Below, one piece after another: positions 444 through 23,534 of a DNA stretch of 64,000 nt; position 1 is the stretch's first letter, and each line of letters opens with the position of its first letter. A program made the position numbers and the translations under genes. Origin of the DNA: Alphaproteobacteria bacterium (lineage in GTDB: Bacteria > Pseudomonadota > Alphaproteobacteria > GM7ARS4 > G965262615). Under the pieces are notes generated by a model. That model saw only the letters and a program-made list of their open reading frames with translations, did not search any database and was not told the origin of the DNA. The stretch lies in NCBI GenBank assembly GCA_965262615.1, contig OZ253545.1, positions 448,001 through 512,000 of the forward strand. The letters run 5' to 3'.

Positions 444-1172
444 TCACAGAGGCGAGTTATAGTCTTCTAGTTCGCTGGTGAAATAATTCGTGCCGTAGAG
501 TTCGCTGAAGGTTTTTTCGATGCGGTGCATTTTGACCATGCCCACATTGGGGGCGTACCACTCTTCGCTGGTGACTTCCACCTGCTCGGTTCCACTGCCG
601 CGCGTGGTGCTAAAAGAAGTCGCGCCTGTGCCGATAATATGCAGACAATTGGAGAATTCTCCTGCCGCCACCCGCACGGTGGCATCACGACTCACCACTC
701 TATAGTTCAGAGGCACAATGAGCTTGACCGATTCATTAAACAGGGGTTTTTCGCGAATGATAATGTAGGTGGTATCAATGATAGACCATGTGCTGTTTTC
801 ATCAAGATTGGTCGCCATGACGGTGCGCGCCCCCTCCTCCCACTGCGGCATCCCACTGGGACGCTTCTGCAACGCCACTCTTTGAATGGCGTGATGGTCG
901 TGACTGTAATAATAGATGAGTCCATTTTCGTGCAAAATGGGGGTGGCATTGAGTGAGTCGCCATTGGGGCGCGTGAGGGTGACCTCATCAAGGCTCATCC
1001 GCACGCTTTTATAGTTCTCGGTGGGGCTATATTGGGGCGCAAAGGTGATGCGATAGTGCCACTCATAGCCGGCGGTGAGGGGGAAATAAGCCGCCTCATG
1101 ACGCACCAACAGCACCACAAGAGGCACTGCCAGCAGCCACAAAAAACGCGCATTATTTTTCAGGAAGGACAT
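444..1172 (-). CDS. Exported/membrane-anchored beta-rich hypothetical protein (DUF3108/TapB-like pattern)
   Basis: C-terminal part of ORF 444..1559. Likely start MSFLKNNARFLWLL at 1172 gives an N-terminal hydrophobic segment. Motifs YFPL..G..W.Y, V.VAAGEF..C and EWYAPNVGMVK. Confidence 0.6.
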   Translation of the reverse strand: MSFLKNNARFLWLLAVPLVVLLVRHEAAYFPLTAGYEWHYRITFAPQYSPTENYKSVRMSLDEVTLTRPNGDSLNATPILHENGLIYYYSHDHHAIQRVALQKRPSGMPQWEEGARTVMATNLDENSTWSIIDTTYIIIREKPLFNESVKLIVPLNYRVVSRDATVRVAAGEFSNCLHIIGTGATSFSTTRGSGTEQVEVTSEEWYAPNVGMVKMHRIEKTFSELYGTNYFTSELEDYNSPL

Positions 1173-1668
1173 AGACGGGAAGATCATGGAACGATAGTTG
1201 AGGGGTTGCTTGAATGACATTCTGGTCGGTGATGCGTCCTTCTTGCATGCCGATGCGGGGTTTGTTTTCACCCATTTGCGGCTGTCCATTGGATATTTTT
1301 TGCAGAGCGTGGGCGACCTCTTGGTGTAACAATTCATCATAACGCAGGCTGTAGGAGCGAGGCTGGGTGTGACCGACACGCTCATCCATGTCGGTGATCC
1401 ACAAATAGACCGCGCCATCGTCTCCCGTGATGGAATTGGGCTCTTGAATTTCCGCCGCCACCAGACGAAAACGCGGCGGCAATGCGTCCGGCACGGGCCA
1501 GCCGCGCACCGCGAGTTGCGTCTCATAGTGAATGCCGTAAAACAGTGACAACAGAGCAATCAATGATGCTTTTTTCATCGCCGACCAATCGCTCTCCAGC
1601 AGCAAAAACAAAACAATTGCCGCCATGATGAGATAGCTGGTGATGAGTCCAAAAAACGAGAGTGTCAT
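1153..1668 (-). CDS. Hypothetical membrane protein (2 N-terminal TM helices plus soluble domain)
   Basis: 171 aa ORF with two hydrophobic segments, then GWP...P.RF...EP...VYLWI...PRSY. Overlaps both neighbours. Confidence 0.7.
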   Translation of the reverse strand: MTLSFFGLITSYLIMAAIVLFLLLESDWSAMKKASLIALLSLFYGIHYETQLAVRGWPVPDALPPRFRLVAAEIQEPNSITGDDGAVYLWITDMDERVGHTQPRSYSLRYDELLHQEVAHALQKISNGQPQMGENKPRIGMQEGRITDQNVIQATPQLSFHDLPVYVLPEK

Positions 1669-2273
1669 GATGGCAAATCCGGAGCGTACGAGACCAGTTG
1701 TTTTTCAAGAAAGTTCAAGTCCAACATAGCACCATTTCCACTGAGGGTGAAACGAAAAGCTGTTTTTTCTGCTCCTGTGCGCTCAAGGGTGACGGTGTCA
1801 TAATGGAGCACCTGAAGGGCGGGATTGACTCGTTCCAGCTTGACGGTCACCTCCACGGGCTCTTTGGTCTCCGACATGTAATAGTGGACATTGACCACAT
1901 ACTCGCCAGGCACAACGCCTCGCAGGGTGACGATTTCTTGATTGAGTTCATTGATGATGGTGGTTTCATTGTGTGTGGTGGCATCAAAGAGTTTTCCGCG
2001 ATCGTCACGGTCAAGATGGAGCAATCCGCCTTCTTTGTTGCGATACCAGATGAGGTCTCCTTGGGGCCCTTGCACCCACAGGTCAATATCGTCGGGGCTA
2101 CCGTCTTGCCAGGTGACCGAGATGATGTATTCGGCTTTGCGCTCCACATTGCCTCTGGTGACGATGGGATTCATGAAGATGACGGCGATAAAAAACAGGA
2201 AAGTGAATCCCATAAGGGCATTGAAAAGCAAATCGGTAAAGGGATCGCTGCGAATACGACGATGAGCGCGCAT
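1665..2273 (-). CDS. Single-TM protein with MotB/ExbD-like N-terminal Asp-containing helix and YfaP/DUF2135-like periplasmic domain
   Basis: N-terminus PFTDLLFNALMGFTFLFFIAVIFM; soluble part has W...DDIDLWV..P.G, LDRDD.G, E.VTL...PGEY.VNVHYY. Confidence 0.65.
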   Translation of the reverse strand: MRAHRRIRSDPFTDLLFNALMGFTFLFFIAVIFMNPIVTRGNVERKAEYIISVTWQDGSPDDIDLWVQGPQGDLIWYRNKEGGLLHLDRDDRGKLFDATTHNETTIINELNQEIVTLRGVVPGEYVVNVHYYMSETKEPVEVTVKLERVNPALQVLHYDTVTLERTGAEKTAFRFTLSGNGAMLDLNFLEKQLVSYAPDLPS

Positions 2274-2275
2274 GG

Positions 2276-2815
2276 CTATGACGAGGGTTGCGTGGCGATG
2301 AAATGATGGGTGATGCTTTCAAGAATGTAGTATTGTGCGCTTAAGAAGATGGCGGCGAGCAATCCGGTGAGGGTGGTATAGAGGGCGATGCCCATGCCTG
2401 CGCCCATGTCGGTCATGAGTTTTTGGGCGATTTCAATGTCAAGGCGCGTGATGGAAGCAAGGGATGACAGCATGAAGATAAAGCCCACAACCGTGCCCAG
2501 CAGTCCCAATTTGACGAGCACATCAACGATGAACCAGCCGAGTTCATAATGGTCATGAAGGTCGGTGTTGCTGTAGGGAAGTTGCAGGCGGTGATGATGA
2601 ATGGCGCGCGCCATCGTATAAATATGAAAGCCGCAATGCACCGTCATGGCGGTAAAAAGAATCATGATGACCACAGAAATATGACTGCGGTCGGCAATGA
2701 GCAGTGTGGTGAGCCATCCCTCGCGCCAGCAAATCCACAGGGCAAACACGGTGAATCCCAGCAAGCTCATCCAGAGGAGAAAGGGATGATAGTTAGGGCG
2801 CGCGATGGTTTTCAT
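2276..2815 (-). CDS. MotA/TolQ/ExbB proton-channel family protein (short)
   Basis: Hallmark helices LGLLGTVVGFIFML and GMGIALYTTLTGL; 179 aa; about 4 hydrophobic segments. Confidence 0.8.
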   Translation of the reverse strand: MKTIARPNYHPFLLWMSLLGFTVFALWICWREGWLTTLLIADRSHISVVIMILFTAMTVHCGFHIYTMARAIHHHRLQLPYSNTDLHDHYELGWFIVDVLVKLGLLGTVVGFIFMLSSLASITRLDIEIAQKLMTDMGAGMGIALYTTLTGLLAAIFLSAQYYILESITHHFIATQPSS

Positions 2816-5428: not shown

Positions 5429-7272
5429 TGACGGCAGCAGATATGGTGCGGGTGGTGATGGTGGGGCATGTGGATCATGGCAAATCGACTCTGTTGGGGC
5501 GACTGTTTTATGAGACCGATGCGCTTGCCGAAGGACGCTATGAAGCCATTCAAGAGATGTGCCGGCGGCGCGGCATGCCCTTTGAGTGGGCGTTTTTGAC
5601 CGATGCCTTGCAGGCAGAGCGCGATCAGGGCATCACCATTGACACCACACAGATTGCGTTCAAGACGCGTACGCGCCCCTACATGCTGATTGATGCGCCG
5701 GGGCATCTGGAGTTTTTACGCAACATGATCACGGGAGCCGCCACCAGCGATGCGGCTTTTTTGTTGATTGATGCCAAAGAGGGAATTCAGCAACAGACAC
5801 GCCGCCATGCGCGCCTTTTGGCAATGCTGGCGGTGGAGCAGTTTTTTGTGGTGATGAATAAAATGGACTTGGTCAATTTTGACCAAAAAATCTATCGGCA
5901 ATTAAAATCTGAGATGGAAGTGATTTTGCACGAACTGGGCATGACGGCGCGCGGCTTTATTCCAGTGTCGGCTCGTGAGGGTGATGGGGTGGCGGCGGCA
6001 TCAAAGCGTATGAGTTGGTATCAAGGCAAGAATTTGTTGACGGCACTGGATGATTTTGCGCCGCCGCGCGGCAAAGAAAAATTGCCGCTGCGTCTGATGG
6101 TTCAGGATATCTATAAGTTTGACGAACGGCGCATTATTGCAGGACGGGTTGAGCAAGGCACGGTTCGTGTGGGCGATGAGGTGTTGTTTTTGCCCAGTGG
6201 CTTGCAGGGCACGGTGCATCGTTTGGAGCAATGGTCGTCCGGCAAGACCGAGCCTTTGCAGCGGGTGCGTGCGGGCGGTTGTTTTGGCATGACGCTGCGG
6301 CAGCAGATTTTTGTGGAACGCGGGCATATTGGGTGTCACAAAAAAGACTCGCCCGCTCTGACTCATGAATTGACGGCGCGACTTTTTTGGCTGAGCAAAG
6401 AGCCGTTGCGGCAGGGGGCTTGTTATGATGCCGTGTTTGGAACGGCACGCCATCAAGTGGAGGTGCTGGATATTTATGATTACGATGAGACGGGACAGAA
6501 AGCATCATCGGCGGTGGCACAGCTGCCGACCCATGCCATTGCCGATGTGCGTCTGCGCAGCACGGGCTATGTGGTGTATGACCACGGGGCGCGCTTTATT
6601 GTGCGCGACGGCTATGAGATTGCGGGGGGCGGATTGGTTTTGGACGGCGTGTCATTGCCTCAGCAACATGGTGAAAAGAAGCATATTTTTGTGGCACACA
6701 CACGGGTGAAGGATGACGACCGTCACAAGCGCAATGGTCATAAGGGCGGCGTTTTCTGGCTGACGGGATTATCCGGTTCGGGCAAGAGCACCATTGCCAC
6801 CGAATTGGAGCGACAGTTGTTTGTGAAGGGATATCAGGTGTTCATGCTGGATGGGGACAATTTGCGCCATGGATTGAATGAAGATTTGGATTTTAGTGCG
6901 GCATCACGGCGAGAGAACATTCGCCGTGCCGGTGCGGTGGCGGCATTGATGGAGCAGGCGGGCATGGTGGTGCTGGCGGCATTCATCTCGCCCTATCGGG
7001 ATGATCGCATCACGGCGCGGCGGGCGGCACGGTCGTTTCATGAAATTTACATCAAAGCCTCGCTGGATACCTGTGAGGCGCGCGATCCCAAAGGACTCTA
7101 TCAAAAGGCGCGCGCGGGCGATATTACTGACTTTACCGGCATTTCCGCGCCCTATGAAGCACCTGAAAATCCCGAATGCATCGTGGACAGCGACCAATGG
7201 ACGGTGGAACAATCGGTGGGAGAATTGATGGCGTATATTGAAAAAAACCTTGATTCGGTGAGGCGGTCATGA
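5425..7272 (+). CDS. cysNC: Bifunctional sulfate adenylyltransferase subunit 1 / adenylylsulfate kinase
   Basis: [23 protein letters not shown] and NKMD (GTPase), plus C-terminal [26 protein letters not shown] (APS kinase). Confidence 0.95.
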
Positions 7273-10200
7273 CGGCACAAAAAAACAAACAGCCCGTCCT
7301 CACATTGTCCTACGGTGTTGATTTTGCCGACCTCTACCAGCAAGAAGGGTTGCAAAAGATTGATGACATTTTTATGGGGGAACTAGAGACAAAGGATGCC
7401 GCTTTGGCATCATCTTTGCGTGGCGCGCGAGCAACGCCTGCCGACTATGAAGGCAAGGAGGGCGCCGAATTATTGTTGGCGGTGGCGGCGCATCTGGATG
7501 ATTTTGTGGCGCGCCTGTTTGCCATTGAAAAAGAGACGGCATCCCTTGCCCATCACCATGCTTCTCATGACGATTTATACACGGTGCGGCGATTGTTCAT
7601 TCAAAAGCAGGCGGTGCGGCGGCATCGTCATGACGAGGTGAAAGACTGGGATGGGGATGTTTTGGCGCGCACCCTCAATGGCTGGATGAAGCAATCGGGG
7701 GCACATGTGGATGAGACTGTTTATGCCCATCATGTTCTGCGATGGCTTGGGGATGAATCTCGCTACGAGGAGGCTCTTGATGCGGCGCGCCGCTATGGCG
7801 CGTGGGCGAGTTTGACGGCGGCGGGACGGCGGCGGCATGAGGGAGATGTGGTTTTTGTGGTGCCGTCACCTGTGGATGCCATGCACAGAGTGGCTTTGTT
7901 GCCTCTGCCCGATGCTCATGGCGCACAAGGGTACGAAAATTCTCATTTACGCTCACGCTTGGGATTTTCTTTGACCGATCAAGGCTATGACACCCGTCAG
8001 GCACTGGCGGAGGTGTCTTATTGCATTTTGTGTCACCATCAGGGCAAGGATTCGTGTTCTAAGGGCTTGGCTGCCAAAAAAGATGAGGAGGGACTCTTTC
8101 ATCGCAATGTTTTTGGCGAAGAGTTGGCGGGGTGTCCTCTTGAGGAGAAAATATCCGAGATGCATGAGGCAAAAAAGAATGCGTTGTCCATCGGGGCATT
8201 GGCGATTGCGTGTGTTGATAATCCCATGCTGGCGGGAACGGGGCATCGCATTTGCAATGACTGCATGAAGGCGTGCATTTATCAAAAACAGGATGCGGTG
8301 GATATTCCTCAGGTGGAATCGCGCGTTCTCAAGGATGTGTTGTCTCTGCCGTGGGGCTTTGAGATTTATTCGCTGCTGACTCGTTGGAATCCTCTCAATT
8401 ATGCTCGTCCTGTGCCTCGCCGTGCCAGTGGTTATAAGGTTTTGGTGGTGGGACTGGGTCCTGCGGGCTACACGCTGGCACACCACCTGATGAATGACGG
8501 ACACGATGTGGTGGCGGTGGATGGTCTTAAGATTGAACCGTTGCCCTCTCATTTGAACGGGGTTTGTCATGATGGTACGCGCGTCGCCTTTGAACCCATC
8601 CATGATGTGTCCGCATGGCAAGAAGACCTAGATGAGCGGGTGAGTGCGGGCTTTGGCGGCGTTGCCGAATATGGCATCACTTCTCGTTGGGATAAGAATT
8701 TTTTGCTGGTTTTGCGTTTGTTGCTGGAGCGGCGCGCCTCGTGTGCCATTTATGGCGGTGTTTTGTTTGGCGGCACACTGACTTTTGCGGATGCCTTTGC
8801 TATGGGGTTTGACCACATTGCCTTGTGCATGGGAGCGGGACGACCCACCGTGCTGGATTTGCCCAATGGTTTGGCGCGCGGGGTGCGTCAGGCATCGGAC
8901 TTTTTGATGGCACTGCAATTGACGGGCGCGGCGCGCAAAGACAGTGTTTCCAATTTGCAATTGCGCCTGCCTGCGGTGGTCATCGGCGGCGGACTGACCG
9001 CCATTGACACGGCGACAGAGGCTTTGGCGTATTATGTGCGTCAATGTTTGAAGTGGCTGCATCGCTATGAGTCATTGGGAGAAAAAGCTCTCGCAAACAT
9101 TTGGGATGAGGAAGAGCGCGCCATCGCCGATGAATGGCTCGCTCACGGGCGCGCTCTGCAAGACGAAATCACCGCCGCACAAAAAGAAGGGCGCGCGCCT
9201 CATTTCACTCCTTTGTTGCGCTCATGGGGTGGTGTCACCATTGCCTATCGTCGGCGCATGGTGGATTCTCCCGCCTATCGCCTGAATCCCGAAGAGGTGG
9301 ATCTCGCCATGGAGGAAGGCATTTCCTTTATGGAATTGGTGTCACCACAGCACATTGAACTGGATGAGTGGGGGCATGCGGCTCGCCTTGATTTAGAAAA
9401 ACAGCGGCTGGATGACAATCACCGTATTCACGGCAGTGGCGAGACAATATCCATTGCCGCCCGCGCCATTCTTGTGGCTGCGGGAACAAAGCCCAACACG
9501 GTGCTTGCCCGTGACACAGACAATGGATTGCAGATGGATGGCAATTATTTTCAATTGCTGGATGATGATGGCAAAGCCAAGAAGGTCACATGGTCTGTCA
9601 AGACTATCGGGGGCGAATACGGCTTTTTGACCTCTCTCAGAGATGATGGGCGCGGGGTGAGTTTTTTCGGTGATTTGCATCCCTCCTTTGCGGGCAATGT
9701 GGTCAAAGCGATGGCATCGGCAAAGCATGGGTATCCTGTGATTGATGGGGTGCTGCGCCGCCGTGCCCCTTGCGGCGATGACTTTGCTCAGCTGCGTCAT
9801 CATTTGGATGACTCTTTGCGGGCGCGTGTGACGCAAGTCAATCGTCTTGCGCCTGCCATTGTGGAGATTGTGGTGCGTGCGCCTCTGGCGGCGCGGCATT
9901 TTCGTCCTGGTCAATTTTATCGGTTGCAGAATTTTGAGTCGTCATTGCATAGCGTCGGTGGCACGCGTCTTGGAATGGAGGCTTTGGCATTAACGGGGGC
10001 ATCGGTGGATTTGCAACAAGGCACTCTTTCCACCATTGTGCTGGAGATGGGCGGCTCATCGGACTTGTGCCGCTCTCTCAAAGCGGGGGATGATGTGGTT
10101 TTGATGGGACCCACCGGCACCCCCACAGAAATTCCTCACGATGAGACTGTGCTGCTGGTGGGGGGCGGATTGGGCAATGCGGTGTTGTTTTCCATTGCCG

Positions 10201-10781
10201 AGGCTTTGCGCGCTCACAATTGTCGTGTGCTTTATTTTGCCGGCTATCGCACCCATGACAGCCGCTACAAAGAGGAACAGATTTTGAAATCGTCCGATGT
10301 GGTGGTCTGGTGCTGTGATGAAGGTGTTTTTTCCACCACGCGCGCTCAAGATAAAAGTTTTCACGGCAATGTTGTGGAAGCCATGATTGCCTATGGCAGT
10401 GGTGATTTGGGCACTGTGACCATTGAGCTCAAGGATGTCACCCGCATGGTTGTGATTGGCTCTGATGCCATGATGGCGGCGGTGGCGTTGGCGCGTCATA
10501 ACGAATTGCGTCCTTTTTTGCGCTGTGACCATCTTGCCATCGGCAGCATCAATTCGCCCATGCAGTGCATGATGAAAGAGATTTGTGCCCAATGTTTGCA
10601 GCGGCATGTGGATCCCGTTAGCGGGGAAGAGCGGGTTGTTTTTTCGTGTTTCAATCAGGATCAGCCTTTGGATCGGGTGGATTTTTCTTGTTTGGCGGCG
10701 CGTTTGCGGCAAAATTCGGTGCAAGAAAAGCTCACCGCTCAATGGTTGGCACGGCAGACGGCTCTTGACATGCACGATTGA
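7269..10781 (+). CDS. Large Fe-S/FAD oxidoreductase: GltD/SudA/NfnL-like module fused to a C-terminal PyrK/SudB/NfnS-like module
   Basis: CILCH...C...[34 protein letters not shown]; then RPGQF, GPTG, GGGLG and the [2Fe-2S] motif [12 protein letters not shown]...C. Confidence 0.85.
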
Positions 10782-12920: not shown

Positions 12921-12932
12921 GAAATTATAGTG

Positions 12933-14261
12933 ATGTTTACTAAGCCTCTTACAGACATAGATGAAGACGATATTCAAGCTCTTGTGAATCATAAGGAGCA
13001 AGAGAGTGCTGAATTGGAATTCAAGAGAGACATTGAAAGCACCGACAAAGGAAAAAAGAAATTGGCGAAACATGTCTCAGCAATGGCGAATGCCAATGGT
13101 GGCATCATCATTTTTGGAATTGAAGAAAAAGAAAGCAAGGCAGACAAGCTCATTGGCATTGATGAAATGGTTGGCGACCAGCCTGTAGGCGAATTCGTCA
13201 ATAATGTATTGATTTCAAGGGTTCGCCCGCGCCTTGCCGTTCAGCCACAAGCGGTCAAGCTGGCAAATGGAAAGGTTGTATTGGTGTTGCAGGTTTCAAG
13301 AATTCCTTATCGTCCTCACATGGTGCTGGCTGAGAATGTCTATTATGTGAGGCATAATTGTAGTGTCGCCCTCGCCGATGAGCATGAGGTGCGCGCAATG
13401 GTTCTTGAGAGCAAGTCGTCATCCGATGAAGTGAAAGAATTTCTCAAAAAAAGAAAGCTTGATGACAAAGACAGAGAAGATTTTGCTTTGACACCCCTTG
13501 CAAAAAGAATGAGGGAAAATCCTCTCATGGCGAAGCAAATTCCTGAAGGTCATGAAGGCAAGCCATTTGTGCTTTTTGCCAGCTGCCCCAGACATCTTGA
13601 AGAAAGAGTAAATATTGCATCAGGGGCTTTTTATGAGAAGGTCAATAAAAGCAGTTGTTTTAACCTATTTGGTGAAAAAATTGATTTTTTTTATCTGGCT
13701 AGACAGTCACGCATAACCTCCGATAGCCTATCCCGAGTCGCTTACGATGACGAGGGTGAGAGCGAAATTCGCAGATATGTAGAAATTTGCAGAAACGGGT
13801 ATGTGGAAAGAGGATTGTGTCGCGATATTCTTCTTCGGAAGAATGAAAATTCTGAATTGTTATTTCGCACTGCGCGCTTCGTGGCATATTTTTGGGCTTA
13901 TATGACATTCATCAATCGGCTATACAGGGCAATCGGCTATTTTGATGAATTAAATATCATCGTTGCTTTGTCAGATACAAAGGGAATCGCCGCGGCGTTA
14001 TTTGGAAATAAAGATCAAAATCATTATGATGATGACTCTTATGTATCTCGTGCAGGCATTGCACAAGAAGGGAATGCTCTCATTGAAAGTTCTGTTGTTA
14101 TTTCGGAATTGGGGGATGAACAAATAGAAGCAATTGTCAAGGAAGTTGTTGGGCGCGTGTTAAATCATTTCAATAAAAGTATTGAGAAATGCCTTGATGA
14201 AGAAGGAAAATTTGATGAAGAGCGTTTGAAAATGGGTATTCGTGATATGTATTTGCCTTGA
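12933..14261 (+). CDS. Schlafen/AlbA_2 domain protein with uncharacterised C-terminal domain
   Basis: ESAELEFK, SAMANANGGIIIFGI and YYVR motifs of the AlbA_2 (Schlafen core) domain; visibly more AT-rich than the flanks. Confidence 0.85.
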   Translation: MFTKPLTDIDEDDIQALVNHKEQESAELEFKRDIESTDKGKKKLAKHVSAMANANGGIIIFGIEEKESKADKLIGIDEMVGDQPVGEFVNNVLISRVRPRLAVQPQAVKLANGKVVLVLQVSRIPYRPHMVLAENVYYVRHNCSVALADEHEVRAMVLESKSSSDEVKEFLKKRKLDDKDREDFALTPLAKRMRENPLMAKQIPEGHEGKPFVLFASCPRHLEERVNIASGAFYEKVNKSSCFNLFGEKIDFFYLARQSRITSDSLSRVAYDDEGESEIRRYVEICRNGYVERGLCRDILLRKNENSELLFRTARFVAYFWAYMTFINRLYRAIGYFDELNIIVALSDTKGIAAALFGNKDQNHYDDDSYVSRAGIAQEGNALIESSVVISELGDEQIEAIVKEVVGRVLNHFNKSIEKCLDEEGKFDEERLKMGIRDMYLP

Positions 14262-14358
14262 CAAAAAAATTGGTGGTTGTTTTGTTGTCTTGACTTTGTC
14301 CACAGATGTATCCATTTAGTGGGTGTCATGAACACGAACCTTTGTGGGAGGGCGAGAG

Positions 14359-14829
14359 ATGAACGCGCGTAGTGGCGAGTCTATGGGCAATCGCGATCCT
14401 TTTGTCATCGCCAATTATTTGATTGAGAATTATGATGGCGGTCTTAGACCTTTGCAATTAATCAAGTTGGTCTATATCGCGCACGGGTGGTTTTTGGCTT
14501 TTACAAACGGCATTCCGCTTTTGCGGGAGCCTGTTCAGGCGTGGAAGTATGGTCCCGTTGTGCCGAGTCTCTATCATGCCGTCAAAGGAAGCAGAGAAAT
14601 TGTGAAGCTTTTGCCAGGGGCACAGAGCTGGGATATTTTGCATCAAGATGAGCGTAAAATTTTGGACGAGACGCTTGAGCTCTATGGTCATTTTACGGGA
14701 ACGCAACTGTCATCTTTGACTCATCAAAAGGACACTCCGTGGGCTGAAACATGGGATGGCACTTTCTATAATGATATTCCTAATGAATTGATTAGGGATT
14801 ATTATTTGCGGAAAAAAGAAGAAAATTAA
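14359..14829 (+). CDS. Panacea (DUF4065/SocA/GepA-like) antitoxin domain protein
   Basis: IANY, LQLIKLVYIAHG, AWKYGPVVPSLY and LSSLTHQKDTPW motifs; GGAGGG SD before ATG 14359. Confidence 0.9.
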   Translation: MNARSGESMGNRDPFVIANYLIENYDGGLRPLQLIKLVYIAHGWFLAFTNGIPLLREPVQAWKYGPVVPSLYHAVKGSREIVKLLPGAQSWDILHQDERKILDETLELYGHFTGTQLSSLTHQKDTPWAETWDGTFYNDIPNELIRDYYLRKKEEN

Positions 14830-14848
14830 TTTATTGTCAACAAGATTG

Positions 14849-15184
14849 ATGATGAAAAAAGATGAACAATATGTAAAAGGGGTATCGTCCCCTGATGATA
14901 CGGATGAAAGCAAGGCGGATGAAGAAAGCCTTGCTCAAGCGAGGCGATACAGATTTGCAAAAGAAAAAAGAAAAGAGGATAAAAGAAAGCTTATTCATTT
15001 TTTGAGCATGACGCTTATCGGGCTTGCCTTTGCAATTCTTTTCGCTATTCTTATTTTGGGTGCTTCTTATTTGTATTATGGGGGTGAGTCATTAGTCGTT
15101 CAATTTCTTGGTGCTACGGCTGGTTCTATGGTGGGTTCTTTCATAGCTTATCTTGTATGGAACATATATCGCCATGATATCTAA
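14849..15184 (+). CDS. Small protein with charged N-terminus and two C-terminal TM helices; candidate Panacea-cognate toxin
   Basis: Two hydrophobic segments (FLSMTLIGLAFAILFAILILGASYLYY; FLGATAGSMVGSFIAYLVW); 19 nt downstream of the Panacea gene; AT-rich. Confidence 0.6.
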   Translation: MMKKDEQYVKGVSSPDDTDESKADEESLAQARRYRFAKEKRKEDKRKLIHFLSMTLIGLAFAILFAILILGASYLYYGGESLVVQFLGATAGSMVGSFIAYLVWNIYRHDI

Positions 15185-16195: not shown

Positions 16196-17068
16196 TCATC
16201 CAGTAATCAATGAGCGAAAGAGATGAGCATCAGGAATTTTTGTTTTATGCCCGTAAAATAGAATTTCTGCCCCCTTTTTCATTTTATAAGCAAAGTGCTT
16301 CAGAAGATATTTCTCTGACAAAGCCCAACGATACATTTTCCTTATTTGTGGCACATCGTCATACGACACAATCCAGTGAAAATGCTTCATGGATTTTATC
16401 TTGTCCGCAACCTTCTTATGCTGTTCATCATTGTAATGATTCATATACAGCGAACTTCCCTTTGAATAATAGGGGGGGTCAAAATAAAAAATCGTGTTGT
16501 CACCCCATTTGTCCATATCCTCAATGAGCTCTAAAGCGTCTTTGTGATGGAGCGTGATGTTTTTTTTATGCTTGGCTATCAGTCGTATTCTCTCTATGAG
16601 GTTTGTTTTATTGAAGCGACAATCCATTTTGTAATTTCCCTGTTGAGCAATGCCGCCAATAACGCCCGCATTGATAATGCCAGAGCGATTGGTTCTGTTG
16701 AGAAAAAAAGTGGAAAAGCCTAACTCCAAAAGGTCAGCTTGAGCCTTAAGATTAGCTTGAGCCTTGTTTTTTTGTATCTCTTTCGCTTTCCGCCAATGAG
16801 GCATTGTCACGGGTGTTTTTTCTATGCACTCACACAATTCATCCGTGCGATTTAACACACAATACCAAAAAGCATAAATTGAGCTGTCGTAATCGTTGAT
16901 TGTGATTGTTTTGACCTTACCCTCAATCAATAAATACAATGCCACCGCCGCACCGCCAACATAAGGCTCTACATAGTGTCCATCAACGCCATTATCAACG
17001 CATATTTGAGCAATCAAGCGCGCCAATCTATTTTTGCCACCTGGATATCTCAACGGTGAGTAAAACAT
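16196..17068 (-). CDS. Dam-like (D12 class, alpha group) DNA adenine methyltransferase
   Basis: SPLRYPGGK, YVEPYVGGAAV (motif I variant), FFLNRTNRSG, catalytic DPPY, SYD. Confidence 0.92.
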   Translation of the reverse strand: MFYSPLRYPGGKNRLARLIAQICVDNGVDGHYVEPYVGGAAVALYLLIEGKVKTITINDYDSSIYAFWYCVLNRTDELCECIEKTPVTMPHWRKAKEIQKNKAQANLKAQADLLELGFSTFFLNRTNRSGIINAGVIGGIAQQGNYKMDCRFNKTNLIERIRLIAKHKKNITLHHKDALELIEDMDKWGDNTIFYFDPPYYSKGSSLYMNHYNDEQHKKVADKIKSMKHFHWIVSYDDVPQIRKMYRWALSEKYLLKHFAYKMKKGAEILFYGHKTKIPDAHLFRSLITG

Positions 17069-17074
17069 ATCATG

Positions 17075-18493
17075 TCACTTTTTGTCTTTCTGGATTTGAT
17101 TGTACACTATTTCAAAAAATTCCTGCAGGTCGTTCCAACACACCCTCAAATCATTTTCAAGCGGTTTCACATCGTTATCGTGGACATAATAGTGAAAATC
17201 TTCCACAGACAAAAAACGTGTATTTTTGTTGGTAAGATTTTTTACCTTCCTAAATTTTTCACTCCCTATTCCATGTTGATTTTCCAAGTGAGCTGCAACC
17301 TTTTCAATCTTTTTTGTAAGTGCTGTTTTTTTCTCGAAGGAAAAGCCGTATTTTTCGGCGTAAGAATTCACTGTGCCTTCTAAAAAAACCCTAAAAAGAA
17401 CTGCCACTGCATTTGGTGTATCTCTCACCACCAAATGCTTTTTTAATTCTAAATAGATATCATTTACCTTTCCTTTCTCAATTCTTAATGAGAAATTATC
17501 TGGTATTAGATGTTTTCTTTCTGTGCTCCGAGGATTTTCTACAGGTTTGGGGGGGATGACAGGTTTGGGGGGCAGTGGCTTCACTGCTGGTTTTTTCTTT
17601 TGCTGTGATTGCGCGTTCAGATTGGCTATTTCTTCATTAGCCCTTGATATAGATTCATCGTCTATACTATTCAGATATTTTTTTATGTCCTCTTTCAAAT
17701 TAAGAGTACGGCTATTCAAAGCATCTTTCTTACCAACACTTTGATTGGTAAAGATTTCTTTATAGGCTTTTCCATTTACAACATTTAGAATAATAACCTT
17801 CAATTTGTTTTCAAAATTGTCAGTGCCTATTGATAGTTTCCCATTTTCAATCTTGAACTGAAAAAATTCTTTGGACACATCGCGGGTGAGTATTCTCTCG
17901 AATGTATAAGAGAAGCCTCTACTAAATACCTTTTGTTTTATGCCCTCTGGCATATTTAAATCATTAACAATTTTGCGAATTCCTGTTTGCAAAATCGTCT
18001 TATCATCTACTTCTCCAATCCTTTGCTTAAAATTTGCGTTTTCAAAAGAACCCCAATTAAGGTGATTATTTCCATATAAGTGCTTTATTTTAACTTGATC
18101 TATAGCAATTTTTTCATCTTTAGTTACCAAGCAATCCATTGGAAAATCACTTCCAATTTGTGTTGTATCCTTCCCTTCTTCAAAAATTACTTTAACCCTC
18201 TCGTCATCCAAAAGAGATGGGTTCAATAACAATTTGTAAATCATCAAGCGACGATTTCCCTCGTAGCAGATTTTTTCAGTTCCTGAATCAAAAATTATGA
18301 GGGCTTCTGCGGGCGGAAGGTGAAAATACCTAATGATAGCTTCTGTTAGTTCTATCATTTTGTTTTTTCGGGCTTTTTCACTAAACATATAGTGGATAAG
18401 CTCTTTTTCAGACTTTCCAGAAAGGTCGTCAGGAAAGCGGGGATTTCTATCCCATAAAATCATGTCGGTGACCTTAATACTTTCTCTATTCAC
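17075..18493 (-). CDS. ParB/Srx-like N-terminal domain protein with a HEPN/DUF4145-like helical C-terminal domain
   Basis: RNPRF and EGNRR motifs at the N-terminus; Pro/Lys linker; C-terminal NAVAVLFRVFLE...FHYYVH; strongly AT-rich; ends 6 nt before the methyltransferase start. Confidence 0.7.
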   Translation of the reverse strand: MNRESIKVTDMILWDRNPRFPDDLSGKSEKELIHYMFSEKARKNKMIELTEAIIRYFHLPPAEALIIFDSGTEKICYEGNRRLMIYKLLLNPSLLDDERVKVIFEEGKDTTQIGSDFPMDCLVTKDEKIAIDQVKIKHLYGNNHLNWGSFENANFKQRIGEVDDKTILQTGIRKIVNDLNMPEGIKQKVFSRGFSYTFERILTRDVSKEFFQFKIENGKLSIGTDNFENKLKVIILNVVNGKAYKEIFTNQSVGKKDALNSRTLNLKEDIKKYLNSIDDESISRANEEIANLNAQSQQKKKPAVKPLPPKPVIPPKPVENPRSTERKHLIPDNFSLRIEKGKVNDIYLELKKHLVVRDTPNAVAVLFRVFLEGTVNSYAEKYGFSFEKKTALTKKIEKVAAHLENQHGIGSEKFRKVKNLTNKNTRFLSVEDFHYYVHDNDVKPLENDLRVCWNDLQEFFEIVYNQIQKDKK

Positions 18494-21431: not shown

Positions 21432-21503
21432 GATGCATCCCCTCGTGTGATGTTTAGTCTGTAACAATTGATAGGATTTTGTTACATTCCTCAAAACACG
21501 GGA

Positions 21504-22106
21504 ATGATGATGACGGAACTCTTATCTTTATGGAAACTGGGCGGCGGCATCATGGTGGTGCTGTCATTGTGTTCGGTGTGGCTGCTGGCGATGGTGTTAT
21601 ACAAATTGTGGCAATGGCGATGGGTGCGCAGTCACTGCGAGGAGTCCATTCGTCGGGTGATGGAAGGCGCGAGTGAGCGTTCTCGTCAGCAATTGATCAA
21701 GGATCTGAGTGGCATTCCTCATGTGGCGGCACTGGCATGTGTTCGCATTGCGAGCACCAATGGCAGACGCGTGTCATGGGAATGGGGGGCGGTGCCGATT
21801 TTGTTGGAGGAATCTCGTTGGCTACGGCGATTTTGTCCCTCACTGGAGCTGCTGGCGCACTTGTCACCTCTGCTGGGATTGTTGGGAACGGTGCTAGGCA
21901 TGATTGATGCTTTCAGCATGTTGGAACAGGTGGGAGACCAAGCCGACCCATCGGTTTTTGCGGGAGGCATATGGAAGGCTTTGTTGACAACGGCAATGGG
22001 GCTGGTGGTGGCGATTCCCGCTTTGGCGGCGTTCAATTTTTTTGATGAACGCGCGAGCCGCGCCGAACAGTTCATGGAGCGCACCGCACGAGGACTGTTC
22101 TCATGA
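21504..22106 (+). CDS. exbB: ExbB-type MotA/TolQ/ExbB proton channel
   Basis: SPLLGLLGTVLGMI and GGIWKALLTTAMGLVVAIPA. Confidence 0.9.
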   Translation: MMMTELLSLWKLGGGIMVVLSLCSVWLLAMVLYKLWQWRWVRSHCEESIRRVMEGASERSRQQLIKDLSGIPHVAALACVRIASTNGRRVSWEWGAVPILLEESRWLRRFCPSLELLAHLSPLLGLLGTVLGMIDAFSMLEQVGDQADPSVFAGGIWKALLTTAMGLVVAIPALAAFNFFDERASRAEQFMERTARGLFS

Positions 22107-22483
22107 GCTTTCTGTTTGGCGCAAAAAAGAACAAGCGTGCACCCAATTGGACACCATTGGTGGATGTCATTTTTCTTTTGCTGATTTTTTTCATGGTGAC
22201 CAGCTCCTTATCACACCCATCGGCACAGCCACTGGCGGCAACGGCCCATGGCAGTGGACAAGAGCCCATTCCTCTCTTGTTGGTGCGCCGCGATGGCTCT
22301 TTTGTGCTGAAGGGAGAGGAGATGAGTGAGTCGCAATTGCGTCTTGCTCTGCAGCCCGCTTCATTGGCTCGCGGCGTGACCGTGACGGTGGAAGAGGGCA
22401 TTACAATCGGTCGCATGGTGCGCGTGACCGATTGGCTACGGCGAGCTGGCATTGCGCCGTTGTTTTTCGCCGCAAAGCCGTGA
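22103..22483 (+). CDS. exbD: ExbD/TolR family protein 1
   Basis: TPLVDVIFLLLIFFMVTS with the conserved Asp. Confidence 0.9.
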   Translation: MSFLFGAKKNKRAPNWTPLVDVIFLLLIFFMVTSSLSHPSAQPLAATAHGSGQEPIPLLLVRRDGSFVLKGEEMSESQLRLALQPASLARGVTVTVEEGITIGRMVRVTDWLRRAGIAPLFFAAKP

Positions 22484-22487
22484 TGTC

Positions 22488-22871
22488 ATGCTGTTTGAAC
22501 CGTCCACGAAAAAGCAAGACAGCGGATTGAGTCTGATTCCGCTGATTAATATTGTTTTTTTGTTGTTATTGTTTTTTTTGGTGAGTGGCTCATGGCGAGA
22601 CTCGGTGGAGCGAGATGTGTCACTGCCCAGCAGTGACCAGCCATTGGAATCGTTGCATGATGGCGTGGCGGTGGTTTTGACTCATGATGGCACATGGCAC
22701 ATGGCAGGGCAGACGGTGACACTGCCGCAGCTGACACAGCAATTGCAAAGAGCGGGGCGCATTAACATTTATGCCGATGAGGCGGCGGCGGCATCCTCTT
22801 TGCTGGCATTACTGGCGGCGATGGAATCATCACAGTCTCAATTGTTTCTCATTGTGCGGCGCAGTCCATGA
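22488..22871 (+). CDS. exbD: ExbD/TolR family protein 2 (Asn at the conserved Asp position)
   Basis: IPLINIVFLLLLFFLVSG, LP.S, I.AD motifs. Confidence 0.85.
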   Translation: MLFEPSTKKQDSGLSLIPLINIVFLLLLFFLVSGSWRDSVERDVSLPSSDQPLESLHDGVAVVLTHDGTWHMAGQTVTLPQLTQQLQRAGRINIYADEAAAASSLLALLAAMESSQSQLFLIVRRSP

Positions 22872-23413
22872 CAGATAGGCAAGACAGATTGATTTTTTCG
22901 CTGGCGATGGCGGTGTCGGTGATGATTCATGCCGCCGTGCTTTGGGGCATGTCTTGGCGGGTGCATGAGCCTTCACCACCACAACGCCATTCTGTGACTC
23001 CATTGCAATTAATTCTGCTGCCCCGTGAGCAATCCTCTGTGGAGATTCCTGTCAAGAAGGAGGGTAGTACGCAATCAGAAGAAGATCCCGTGGCGGTGCA
23101 GCAACTCGTCAGGGAGCAACAATTAATCAAAGAGCAAAAAGCCGATTATTTCACCGTGCTGCACGCCATGATTGACGCATCCAAGACCTATCCCACGCGG
23201 GCATTGCGTCGGCGATTGGAGGGCAGCGTTGTGGTGCGGGTTGTGGTGGATGACATGGGCGCGCTGGTGTCGGCTGTGATTGCACAAGGCGATGAGACTT
23301 TTGAGGCGGCATCATTGGATGCGGTGCGCCGAGCCGCGCCTTTCCCGCCATTGCCATCATCACTGGGGGAGCGTTTGGTGTTTGATGTGCCACTTTATTA
23401 TCGCTTGCGCTGA
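22868..23413 (+). CDS. tonB: Energy transducer TonB
   Basis: N-terminal TM with SVMIH (S-x3-H); C-terminal YPTRALRRRLEG.V.V...AAPFPP. Confidence 0.9.
   Translation: MTDRQDRLIFSLAMAVSVMIHAAVLWGMSWRVHEPSPPQRHSVTPLQLILLPREQSSVEIPVKKEGSTQSEEDPVAVQQLVREQQLIKEQKADYFTVLHAMIDASKTYPTRALRRRLEGSVVVRVVVDDMGALVSAVIAQGDETFEAASLDAVRRAAPFPPLPSSLGERLVFDVPLYYRLR

Positions 23414-23457: not shown

Positions 23458-23534
<77 letters not shown>

What the first reader, a model, noticed from the sequence alone, without database searches (positions are those of the whole stretch)
444..2815. Four-gene module that looks like an uncharacterised ion-driven (MotAB/ExbBD-type) membrane motor
Seen: four tightly packed, co-oriented genes between ctaA and thrB. 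They encode (1) a short MotA/TolQ/ExbB protein, (2) a single-TM protein whose helix carries an Asp (FTDLLFN) followed by a YfaP/DUF2135-like domain instead of an OmpA or ExbD domain, (3) a 2-TM protein with a soluble domain, and (4) an exported beta-rich protein. Established: MotAB, ExbBD, TolQR and ZorAB are 5:2 motors that use a TM Asp in the small subunit. Inference: this is a separate motor type, with protein 3 as transducer and protein 4 as periplasmic client or carrier. A canonical ExbBD-TonB set lies elsewhere in this window, so this module is probably not the Ton system.
Basis: partly seen in the sequence, partly recalled or inferred. Interest (0 to 1): 0.75.

Follow-up and report, generated by a model that had tools for sequence, protein, structure and literature searches.

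The report
Conserved uncharacterised MotAB-like membrane motor
Three tightly conserved membrane-protein genes, plus one lineage-specific exported-protein gene, look like an unstudied relative of the ion-driven motors that power flagella and nutrient uptake, and the trio also occurs in many other proteobacteria and in some Rhizobium phages.

Summary
Four intact, co-oriented, overlapping minus-strand genes lie between ctaA and thrB.

- **p1** (2276-2815) passes the Pfam MotA_ExbB cut-off.
- **p2** (1665-2273) has one N-terminal TM helix with Asp14, which is D in 118 of 128 diverse relatives. Behind it sits a beta-sandwich that is neither ExbD nor OmpA.
- **p3** (1153-1668) is a TM hairpin plus an OB-like domain and belongs to no known family.
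- **p4** (444-1172) is an exported, DUF3108-like protein.

The conserved unit is the trio, not the quartet. The order p1-p2-p3 is kept in 79, 80 and 79 of 80 related genomic loci, and both misses are at contig ends. It is also kept in Azospirillum brasilense and in three size classes of rhizobiophage. p4 follows in only 12 of 80 loci. Elsewhere a vWA-TM-FHA protein takes its place, or nothing does.

My best reading is a divergent MotAB/ExbBD-type ion-driven motor with a new B-subunit head and a new third subunit. Its output is unknown but probably lies at the cell envelope. The 5:2 stoichiometry could not be tested here. I found no published description. The closest concept is the TolQ-like motors with Asp-bearing 'TPH-vWA' partners (PMC12204202).

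Verdict: a new variant of a known kind, interest about 0.65.

The parts
2276..2815 (-). p1: 179-aa, four-TM MotA/TolQ/ExbB-family protein, the putative pentameric A subunit. It is a short form without the cytoplasmic loop.
   Evidence: Pfam MotA_ExbB 3e-10, 40.4 bits against cut-off 22.9. hhalign against the window's own ExbB gives probability 84%, E 7.5e-6. Four hydrophobic peaks at 12-30, 45-63, 95-113 and 140-158. The loop and tail present in 25 of 25 relatives are missing. A 96%-identical 179-aa twin and independent 183- and 197-aa forms exist.
2492..2506 (-). p1 residues 104-108 (GLLGT), in TM3. This is the candidate pore-lining Thr108.
   Evidence: G104, L105, G107 and T108 are invariant in 26 sequences. 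The segment aligns with the LLGLLGTV motif of the window's ExbB.
2372..2377 (-). p1 residues T147-T148, in TM4. This is the second candidate pore-lining Thr position.
   Evidence: A144, L145, T147, T148, G151 and L152 are invariant. The segment aligns with ALLTTAMGL of the window's ExbB and with ALIATAIGL of TolQ in PDB 8odt.
1665..2273 (-). p2: 202-aa bitopic protein, the putative dimeric B subunit. It has a basic N-terminus, a TM helix at 11-34, a linker of about 10 residues, and a beta-sandwich head at 47-187.
   Evidence: AlphaFold model, pLDDT 70.4. 4267 homologues at E<=1e-3. 1847 clusters at 50% identity. No Pfam or NCBIfam family above cut-off.
2232..2234 (-). Codon of p2 Asp14, the candidate ion-binding residue. 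The FTDLLFN motif spans 2220-2240.
   Evidence: Invariant in 19 of 19 sequences. D in 118 of 128 diverse representatives. Aligned to the TM Asp of the window's ExbD, weakly, at E 0.0087. Kept in the phage and Azospirillum homologues.
1995..2018 (-). p2 residues 86-93 (HLDRDDRG). This loop is part of an invariant acidic cluster (D62, D64, D90, D91, D97, E113) in the head domain.
   Evidence: W55, D62, D64, D90, G93 and E113 are invariant, and D91 and D97 are at least 90% conserved, in 65 sequences. The same residues are kept in phage homologues. The loop has low model confidence.
1153..1668 (-). p3: 171-aa protein with an N-terminal TM hairpin and a C-terminal domain with OB-fold topology. It ends in a conserved LPxPxxPEK/PDK tail.
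   Evidence: AlphaFold model, pLDDT 80.5, with helices 2-25 and 30-54, then b1-b3, a helix, and b4-b5. No Pfam, NCBIfam, PADLOC, PDB or Atlas family. It sits directly downstream of p2 in 79 of 80 loci. The inter-helix loop has net charge about +1.9, which suggests a periplasmic C-domain.
444..1172 (-). p4: exported protein of about 242 aa, DUF3108-like. It is a lineage-specific accessory. The alternative start is at 1187.
   Evidence: DUF3108_like at 3.3e-5, 24.3 bits, below the cut-off of 27. The profile hits PDB 4fvs 'putative lipoprotein' at 4.5e-4 and 3fzx at 6.5e-3. Present in 12 of 80 loci. The lipobox Cys column is at least 90% conserved in the 12-row alignment, which leaves the window's own p4 as the only row that can lack it.

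Best explanation
p1, p2 and p3 form one conserved functional unit: a divergent member of the MotAB/ExbBD/TolQR class of ion-driven inner-membrane motors.

The mechanism below is inferred by homology. A ring of p1 subunits surrounds the TM helices of a p2 dimer. Ions pass by protonation and deprotonation of p2 Asp14, which faces the conserved p1 threonines (T108, T147/T148). This drives p1 to move relative to p2.

The output parts are new.
- In place of an ExbD or OmpA-like domain, p2 has a beta-sandwich held only about 10 residues above the membrane. It carries an invariant acidic cluster, which probably binds Ca2+ or another cation or ligand.
- p3 is an obligatory third subunit, a TM hairpin plus an OB-like domain that is probably periplasmic. 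It would dock on the motor and couple or gate it.

Both linkers are short, so the work is probably done at the periplasmic face of the inner membrane rather than at the outer membrane.

p4 is a lineage-specific exported partner and not part of the machine. In most relatives it is a lipoprotein.

The cellular process served is unknown. The gene context points to the cell envelope.
For: Shown directly:
- p1 passes the Pfam MotA_ExbB cut-off.
- p1 shares the two Thr-bearing TM motifs with the window's own ExbB, and these are invariant in 26 sequences.
- p2 has a single TM helix at 11-34 with Asp14 near its cytoplasmic end.
- Asp14 is D in 19 of 19 close relatives and in 118 of 128 diverse relatives. 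Of the 10 exceptions, 5 are N-terminally truncated and 3 carry an Asp one helical turn earlier.
- The order p1-p2-p3 is kept in 79, 80 and 79 of 80 loci from alpha- and gammaproteobacterial genomes. The two misses are at contig ends.
- The same order, with the Asp, is kept in A. brasilense Sp7 and in four rhizobiophage loci. There the gene upstream of p2 matches the p1 profile at E 5e-10 to 3e-5 (3.5e-3 in phage 16-3). The gene downstream matches the p3 profile at E 7e-6 to 1e-3. Off-diagonal comparisons give E >= 0.02.
- p2 is under unusually strong constraint. Mean pairwise identity is 73.5%, against 48.9% for p1 and 52.7% for p3, in the same 53 genomes plus the window.
- The acidic cluster D62, D64, D90, D91, E113 is invariant or nearly so in 65 sequences and is kept in phages.
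- The head resembles Ca2+-binding beta-sandwiches, though only weakly. Foldseek finds TerD-family structures at E 2.6e-3 to 1e-2. Pfam PPC hits 5 of 65 members. A subtilisin C-terminal jelly-roll appears at E 0.27-0.35.

Context:
- In gammaproteobacterial loci the trio is preceded, co-oriented, by a YkuD L,D-transpeptidase (51 of 72) and a DUF302 protein (40 of 72).
- It is followed by a vWA-TM-FHA protein in 32 of 72.
Against: - No 5:2 or any other complex was predicted or observed here, so the stoichiometry rests on family membership alone.
- p1 is remote from every solved or named subfamily. The PDB profile search gives TolQ at only E 0.3. The NCBIfam MotP, ZorA and PomA models score E >= 0.019, far under their cut-offs.
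- The p2 TM matches ExbD only weakly: hhalign probability 4.6%, and Pfam ExbD in 2 of 65 members.
- The head-domain assignments are all sub-threshold, and the key acidic loop is modelled with low confidence.
- The orientation of the p3 soluble domain rests only on a charge-bias count.
- With heads held so close to the membrane and no recognisable peptidoglycan anchor, it is unclear what would act as stator. The complex may not transmit force at all.
- The window's p1 lacks the cytoplasmic loop that its relatives have.
Confidence: 0.62

Rival explanations
1. An ion-conducting channel or sensor rather than a force-generating motor. On this reading p1 and p2 form a gated proton or cation leak. 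The acidic p2 head senses periplasmic Ca2+ or envelope state, and p3 acts as a plug or regulator. Phages would use it to change membrane potential, for example to time lysis.
For: The linkers are very short: about 10 residues between the p2 TM helix and its head, and about 10 between the p3 hairpin and its OB-like domain. No peptidoglycan-binding or outer-membrane-reaching domain was found in any subunit. The A subunits are minimal, 113-148 aa in phages and 179 aa here, with almost no cytoplasmic domain. The invariant acidic cluster is consistent with cation binding.
Against: All characterised members of the MotA/ExbB family with an Asp-bearing partner are force or torque generators (established knowledge; reviewed in PMC9389320, which I saw only in a search listing). 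The strict conservation of a third membrane subunit fits a transduction chain better than a simple channel.
Confidence: 0.15
2. A Zorya-like anti-phage defence or superinfection-exclusion module. The MotAB-like complex would sense envelope perturbation during infection.
For: p1 gives weak ZorA hits in PADLOC (E 0.0033-0.11) and in NCBIfam. Homologous trios are carried by temperate and lytic rhizobiophages, where exclusion genes are common. A vWA-TM-FHA signalling protein follows the trio in 32 of 72 loci.
Against: p2, p3 and p4 match no PADLOC model. No ZorC/ZorD-type or other effector lies in the module. The neighbours are housekeeping genes: ctaA and thrB here, tilS and accA in relatives. 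p2 shows 73.5% mean identity across classes, which is unlike fast-evolving defence genes. The ZorA hits cover only the shared TM core.
Confidence: 0.1
3. A divergent Ton/Tol-type system. p3 would play the TonB/TolA role and carry energy to the outer membrane, and p4 would be its outer-membrane or periplasmic client.
For: The gene order (A subunit, B subunit, third membrane-anchored protein, then an exported protein or lipoprotein) mimics exbB-exbD-tonB and tolQ-tolR-tolA-...-pal. The p4 relatives are lipoproteins.
Against: p3 has two TM helices, no Pro-rich or helical spacer, and no TonB_C or TolA domain. p2 has no ExbD domain. p4 is absent from 68 of 80 loci. A canonical ExbB-ExbD-ExbD-TonB set is already present in the window.
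Confidence: 0.06

Closest known systems
[quoted passage not shown]
   Same: The A subunit belongs to PF01618 and has the same two Thr-bearing TM motifs. The B subunit is encoded directly downstream and has a single N-terminal TM helix with a conserved Asp near the cytoplasmic end. A third membrane-anchored protein is encoded next.
   Different: p1 has four TM helices, as MotA does, and almost no cytoplasmic domain. The p2 head is a beta-sandwich with an acidic cluster, not an ExbD/TolR domain. p3 is a TM hairpin plus an OB-like domain, not TonB or TolA. No NCBIfam TolQ, ExbB or TolR model is approached.
TolQ-like motors with 'TPH-vWA' partners (Mol Biol Evol 2025, PMC12204202; passages read)
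   Same: The concept is the same. A TolQ-like gene has no tolR/exbD gene beside it. Instead it is paired with a protein whose N-terminal 'transpore helix' carries the conserved Asp and whose periplasmic head is a non-ExbD domain. These were proposed from synteny and AF3 models and have no known function.
   Different: The head there is a vWA domain and the genes come in heterologous pairs. Here the head is a TerD/PPC/DUF2135-like beta-sandwich, there is one copy, and an obligatory third gene (p3) follows. The words 'sandwich', 'OB-fold' and 'YkuD' do not occur in that paper's main text. Its supplements were not examined.
MotA-MotB / PomA-PomB flagellar stator units
   Same: The A subunit has a four-TM topology. 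The B subunit has a TM Asp. The gene order is A then B.
   Different: p1 has no large cytoplasmic torque-generating domain. p2 has no plug helix, long linker or OmpA-like peptidoglycan-binding domain. The NCBIfam MotP and PomA models score only E 0.019-0.8.
ZorA-ZorB (Zorya anti-phage system)
   Same: It shares the MotAB-like TM core, with weak PADLOC ZorA hits to p1.
   Different: p1 lacks the long ZorA cytoplasmic tail; it is 179 aa against ZorA profiles of 383-699 positions. There are no ZorB, ZorC or ZorD equivalents. The context is housekeeping.

Membership tests
MotA/TolQ/ExbB superfamily (PF01618) - p1 | Scores above the curated Pfam gathering threshold | tested here: met
   40.4 bits against 22.9, E 3e-10. 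All 39 relatives found carry a precomputed PF01618 annotation.
MotA/TolQ/ExbB superfamily (PF01618) - p1 | Two C-terminal TM helices with the conserved Gly/Thr motifs that line the pore | tested here: met
   GLLGT(104-108) and ALxTTxxGL(144-152) are invariant in 26 sequences. They align to the same motifs of the window's ExbB at probability 84%. The equivalence to TolQ T145/T178 is recalled, not tested.
MotA/TolQ/ExbB superfamily (PF01618) - p1 | Pentamer that encloses two B-subunit helices (5:2) | not testable with these tools
   The complex tool takes at most 6 chains and 1000 residues. 5 x 179 plus 2 x 202 residues in 7 chains exceeds both limits.
Named A-subunit subfamilies (TolQ, ExbB, MotA/PomA/MotP, ZorA) | Reaches the curated NCBIfam or PADLOC model score | tested here: not met
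   The best NCBIfam hit is MotP, at 14 bits against a cut-off of 394. ZorA_4 scores 13.4 against 500. PADLOC ZorA gives E >= 0.0033. The PDB profile search gives TolQ at E 0.3.
MotB/ExbD/TolR-type B subunit - p2 | Single N-terminal TM helix with a conserved Asp near its cytoplasmic end, encoded directly after the A subunit | tested here: met
   Helix 11-34. D14 in 19 of 19 and 118 of 128. Adjacent in 79 of 80 loci.
MotB/ExbD/TolR-type B subunit - p2 | Periplasmic ExbD/TolR domain (PF02472) or OmpA-like peptidoglycan-binding domain | tested here: not met
   Neither is found in the window protein. Pfam ExbD hits 2 of 65 relatives, best E 5e-3. The model shows a beta-sandwich.
TonB/TolA force transducers - p3 | One TM helix, a long Pro-rich or helical periplasmic spacer, and a TonB_C or TolA C-terminal domain | tested here: not met
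   The model has two TM helices, a linker of about 10 residues and an OB-like domain. There is no TonB_C or TolA hit. The window's real TonB does hit TonB_C.
Zorya defence system | ZorA with a long cytoplasmic tail, ZorB, and ZorC/ZorD or another effector | tested here: not met
   PADLOC gives only weak TM-core hits for p1 and nothing for p2-p4.
DUF2135 (YfaP-like) / PPC / TerD beta-sandwiches - head of p2 | Significant sequence or fold match to the family | tested here: inconclusive
   DUF2135 at E 0.14 here, and in 4 of 65 relatives. PPC in 5 of 65, best 6.4e-4. Atlas score 0.89 to a DUF2135 cluster. Foldseek finds TerD structures at E 2.6e-3 to 1e-2, TM 0.39-0.48, with no hit at E<=1e-3. 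Two homologues are named 'YfaP (DUF2135 family)' by JGI.
DUF3108-like exported proteins or lipoproteins - p4 | Reaches the Pfam gathering score | tested here: inconclusive
   24.3 bits against 27. A relative scores 19.6 bits. The profile hits PDB 4fvs at 4.5e-4 and 3fzx at 6.5e-3.
TolQ-like + TPH-vWA motors (PMC12204202) | The Asp-bearing transpore helix is fused to a vWA head | tested here: not met
   The p2 head has no VWA hit. The vWA protein found next to the trio in 32 of 72 loci is a separate vWA-TM-FHA protein.

The most novel reading that the evidence does not exclude
The trio would be a distinct, previously unrecognised class of minimal ion-driven motor, shared by free-living and symbiotic proteobacteria and by rhizobiophages.

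- Its A subunit can shrink to 113-148 residues in phages.
- Its B subunit carries a membrane-proximal beta-sandwich, probably cation-binding and loosely C2- or TerD-like, which acts on the inner-membrane surface or on nascent envelope material rather than on the outer membrane or a rotor.
- Phages would bring their own copy to re-engineer the infected cell's envelope or membrane energetics.

This would add a new output type to the Mot, Ton, Tol, Gld, Agl, Sii and Zor list. It would also be a phage-encoded 5:2 motor; my searches found none described.
Probability: 0.35. Interest if true: 0.85.

Novelty: new variant of a known kind. Interest (0 to 1): 0.65.

Why it matters
Ion-driven 5:2 motors are the only known way for Gram-negative bacteria to deliver membrane energy to the envelope, and each new output module has revealed a new process: motility, uptake, envelope integrity, secretion, gliding and phage defence.

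This family is large. Its B subunit is unusually conserved. It has no Pfam, NCBIfam or PADLOC model and no paper that I could find.

Most carriers are uncultured. However, Azospirillum brasilense Sp7 and several Rhizobium and Sinorhizobium phages carry the trio, so its function can be tested directly in tractable laboratory systems. The very small phage versions could also serve as minimal models for how these motors work.

Tried and rejected
1. Complex prediction of p1 + p2 + p3 at 1:1:1, with p3 as partner. ipSAE was 0.01 and 0.00, and the tool's verdict was 'no answer'. This is not evidence either way. A 5:2 job is beyond the tool's chain and residue limits and was not sent.
2. The listing of cluster members, to find organism names for distant p2 relatives.
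3. Fold and sequence searches for p3. Foldseek against the PDB gave no hit at E<=1e-3, only weak OB-fold proteins at E 0.07-0.4. The PDB profile search gave 0 hits. The Atlas gave only unnamed clusters.
4. Foldseek of p2 against viral models. There was one hit at E<=1e-3, an uncharacterised Cellulophaga phage protein, which was not informative.
5. PHROGs. Only the p2 head matched, to phrog_1735 of unknown function at 5.8e-5. There was nothing for p1, p3, p4 or the six phage proteins.
6. A functional link to ctaA or thrB. The synteny is shared by 1 of 80 loci (L016), so I rejected it as local synteny.
7. p1-p2 fused ORFs as 'Rosetta stone' evidence (P0198, P0310, P0311, P0314). All four rest on single contigs: three are single-member clusters, and one search gives no cluster size for P0198. 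A fifth long ORF, P0312, looks like a frameshifted p2-p3 read-through. These may be assembly or gene-calling artefacts, so I gave them no weight.
8. Literature searches:
   - 'DUF2135': 0 papers.
   - MotAB/ExbBD/ZorAB/GldLM/TolQR: 11 papers.
   - TerD/MotA/vWA/FHA: 5 papers.
   - 'DUF3108': 5 papers.
   - 'transpore helix'/TolQ/aspartate: 93 papers, 15 listed.
   - phage + encoded + 'MotA TolQ ExbB' + rhizobi: 0 papers.
   - '5 2 motor'/uncharacterized/gene neighbourhood: 107 papers, 15 listed, none containing the first term.

   None describes this trio. For PMC12505986 I read the abstract and sections 8 and 14. It classes non-flagellar homologues broadly as 'GIT' and does not describe this family in those parts.
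9. Not checked:
   - the metagenome contigs and viral contigs collections, which were closed;
   - the 414 confirmed genome loci beyond the best 80;
   - the supplements of both papers I read;
   - the second match in each Azospirillum record.


Full report
**What is in the window**

Four intact minus-strand ORFs occupy 444-2815:
- p1, 2276-2815, 179 aa
- p2, 1665-2273, 202 aa
- p3, 1153-1668, 171 aa
- p4, which lies in the long ORF 444-1559. Its plausible start is the ATG at 1172, with an alternative at 1187.

The genes are packed as in an operon. The upstream ctaA overlaps the p1 start by 23 nt. p1 and p2 are 2 nt apart. p2 and p3 overlap by 4 nt, and p3 and p4 by 20 nt. The p4 stop abuts the thrB start. 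No convincing internal terminator was found: 5 terminator-like sites against 4.0 expected in shuffles.

The flanks are heme A synthase and the N-terminal part of homoserine kinase. A canonical ExbB-ExbD-ExbD-TonB cluster lies at 21468-23410.

**The four proteins**

p1 passes the Pfam MotA_ExbB threshold, at 40.4 bits against 22.9.
- It aligns to the window's own ExbB over the two last TM helices (probability 84%, E 7.5e-6).
- The motifs GLLGT (104-108) and ALxTTxxGL (144-152) are invariant in 26 family members.
- It has four hydrophobic segments, so its topology is MotA-like.
- It is remote from every named subfamily. NCBIfam MotP, ZorA and PomA score E 0.019-0.8, far below their cut-offs. PADLOC ZorA gives E >= 0.0033. 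A PDB profile search gives TolQ at E 0.3.
- The window's copy lacks a cytoplasmic loop of about 55 residues and a C-terminal tail that all 25 aligned relatives have. A 96%-identical 179-aa twin and independent 183- and 197-aa forms exist, so short forms recur.

p2 has a basic N-terminus, a TM helix at 11-34, a short linker and a beta-sandwich at 47-187 (model pLDDT 70.4).
- No Pfam or NCBIfam family reaches its cut-off.
- The head gives only weak leads, which agree with one another in pointing to cation-binding beta-sandwiches:
  - TerD-family structures by Foldseek (E 2.6e-3 to 1e-2, TM 0.39-0.48);
  - Pfam PPC in 5 of 65 relatives and DUF2135 in 4 of 65;
  - a subtilisin C-terminal jelly-roll and a virion protein in the PDB (E 0.12-0.35);
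  - a DUF2135 cluster in the Atlas (score 0.89).

p3 is modelled with pLDDT 80.5 as a TM hairpin (helices 2-25 and 30-54) followed by b1-b3, a helix, and b4-b5. That is OB-fold topology.
- It matches no family or solved structure.
- The loop between its helices carries a mean of 1.92 K+R against 0.04 D+E in 73 sequences. By the positive-inside rule this puts the OB-like domain in the periplasm. This is an inference.

p4 has an N-terminal hydrophobic segment and sub-threshold DUF3108-like similarity.
- The lipobox Cys column is at least 90% conserved in the 12-row alignment, which leaves the window's own copy as the only row that can lack it.

**The Asp and other invariants**

- p2 has 4267 homologues at E<=1e-3 in the 90%-clustered collection and 1847 clusters at 50% identity.
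- Asp14 is invariant in 19 close relatives.
- It is D in 118 of 128 diverse representatives. Five of the ten exceptions are N-terminally truncated. Three have the variant DPF[ST]V.LFK, with an Asp one helical turn earlier. Two have unrelated N-termini.
- Asp10 is not conserved.
- hhalign places Asp14 on the TM Asp of the window's ExbD, but weakly (E 0.0087, probability 4.6%).
- In the head, W55, D62, D64, D90, G93 and E113 are invariant. D91, D97, N111, R118, G123 and N128 are at least 90% conserved in 65 sequences.

**Co-occurrence**

Of these, 494 were confirmed and the best 80 were kept. Nearly all are alpha- or gammaproteobacterial MAGs.
- tblastn finds p1 directly upstream of p2 in 79 of 80 loci, and p3 directly downstream in 79 of 80. 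The two misses (L064, L056) are cut by contig ends.
- p4 is found in 12 of 80 loci, both by tblastn and by a profile. In one locus it lies upstream of p1. In two loci it occurs as three tandem paralogues.
- Among the 72 loci where p3 was called, a co-oriented YkuD L,D-transpeptidase precedes the trio in 51 and a DUF302 protein in 40.
- A vWA-TM-FHA protein follows the trio in 32. It never occurs together with p4. 21 loci with enough flank have neither.
- The ctaA...thrB synteny is shared by 1 of 80 loci.
- Within the same 53 genomes plus the window, mean pairwise identity is 73.5% for p2, 48.9% for p1 and 52.7% for p3. It is unusual for the B subunit to be the most constrained part.

**Phages and a cultured host**

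tblastn with p2 finds 30 phage records: 27 Rhizobium, 2 Sinorhizobium and one weak Serratia hit. Several are GenBank/RefSeq duplicates. It also finds 7 Azospirillum chromids.

I examined four phage loci and A. brasilense Sp7:
- RHph_I1_9 and RL2RES, about 155 kb, Pootjesviridae;
- RHph_N3_19, 69 kb;
- phage 16-3, 60 kb.

In these, the gene just upstream of the p2 homologue matches the p1 profile, at E 2.2e-6, 2.6e-5 and 7.8e-6 in the first three phages and 5.2e-10 in Azospirillum. In phage 16-3 the candidate lies two genes upstream, at E 3.5e-3. The gene downstream matches the p3 profile, at E 6.8e-6, 6.7e-5, 6.1e-4, 1.2e-4 and 9.8e-4. All off-diagonal comparisons give E >= 0.02.

The TM Asp and the acidic head cluster are kept in these homologues. 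The phage A subunits are only 113-148 aa. In the large phages the trio sits among gyrase, late-sigma and recombination genes. The trio is therefore a mobile, self-sufficient unit, and p4 is not part of it.

**Interpretation**

The simplest reading is a divergent MotAB/ExbBD-type ion-driven motor. p1 is the ring, p2 the Asp-bearing axle, and p3 an obligatory third subunit.

What is shown:
- family membership of p1;
- the conserved Asp, and the Thr motifs;
- strict synteny across bacteria and phages.

What is inferred:
- the 5:2 assembly;
- ion flow through Asp14;
- physical association of p3;
- cation binding by the head;
- an envelope-related output.

The short linkers argue for action at the inner-membrane surface and against a Ton/Tol-like reach to the outer membrane. 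The main rivals are a gated channel or sensor without force output, a Zorya-like defence or exclusion role, and a divergent Ton/Tol system. Each is listed with its evidence in the Rival explanations section.

**Comparison with what is known, and novelty**

The system works like ExbBD, TolQR and MotAB, but it fails the membership tests for their B-subunit domains and for TonB/TolA.

The nearest published idea is the TolQ-like motor paired with Asp-bearing 'TPH-vWA' proteins (PMC12204202; passages read). That paper's main text mentions neither a beta-sandwich head nor an OB-fold partner.

PMC12505986 classes non-flagellar homologues as heterogeneous 'GIT' proteins, and does not describe this family in the abstract or in sections 8 and 14, which are the parts I read.

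Seven literature searches found no description. I therefore rate it a new variant of a known kind.

**Limits**

- The 5:2 complex could not be submitted.
- The single complex job returned no verdict.
- Only the best 80 of 494 loci were seen.
- All assignments for the p2 head are sub-threshold.

Noticed in passing
L082 3579-5068; L085 2043-3544; L084 2113-3489; L081 3271-5132: Rhizobium and Sinorhizobium phages of three genome-size classes carry the p1-p2-p3 trio, with miniature A subunits of 113-148 aa. All of these genes are annotated 'hypothetical protein'. In the ~155-kb phages the trio sits between gyrase and late-sigma or recombination genes.
   Followed up: partly
L083 4303-6147 (Azospirillum brasilense Sp7 chromid NZ_CP012915.1): A cultured, genetically tractable bacterium carries a divergent trio. 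Each of the 7 Azospirillum records has two matching places. I did not look at the second place.
   Followed up: partly
L001-L080, about 2.5 kb upstream to 2 kb downstream of p2: In gammaproteobacterial loci the trio lies in a longer co-oriented cluster: YkuD L,D-transpeptidase, DUF302, p1, p2, p3, then a vWA-TM-FHA protein. The vWA-FHA gene and p4 are mutually exclusive in the slot after p3.
   Followed up: partly
L009 6141-8980 and L012 6141-9046: Three tandem p4 paralogues, each with a lipobox, follow p3 in two alphaproteobacterial MAGs.
   Followed up: no
P0122, P0207, P0264 (also P0141, P0198, P0314): A p2 subfamily has Val at the Asp14 position, an Asp four residues earlier, and Lys in place of Asn18 (DPF[ST]V.LFK). 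This may be a shifted ion-binding site.
   Followed up: no
window 12930-15181: Next to groES/groEL lie a Schlafen/AlbA_2-domain protein (12930-14258), a SocA/Panacea antitoxin-domain protein (14344-14826) and a small ORF with no family (14834-15181). This could be a toxin-antitoxin or defence islet.
   Followed up: no
window 16196-18490 (-): A D12-class N6-adenine DNA methyltransferase sits beside a 471-aa protein with no Pfam family. This could be a restriction-modification pair.
   Followed up: no
window 7269-10778 (+): A 1170-aa ORF directly after the cysH-cysD-cysNC genes has only a Pyr_redox_2 hit, over residues 389-769. It is an unusually large, mostly unassigned protein in a sulfate-assimilation context.
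   Followed up: no
window 21468-23410 (+): The canonical Ton/Tol-like cluster has two tandem ExbD/TolR paralogues, and its A subunit scores better against the tolQ model than the exbB model in NCBIfam. A tRNA gene follows at 23458-23531.
   Followed up: no
window 2276-2815 (-): The window's p1 has lost the cytoplasmic loop of about 55 residues and the C-terminal tail found in 25 of 25 aligned relatives. The window's p4 has lost the lipobox Cys that is at least 90% conserved among its aligned relatives. Both features are lineage-specific.
   Followed up: partly
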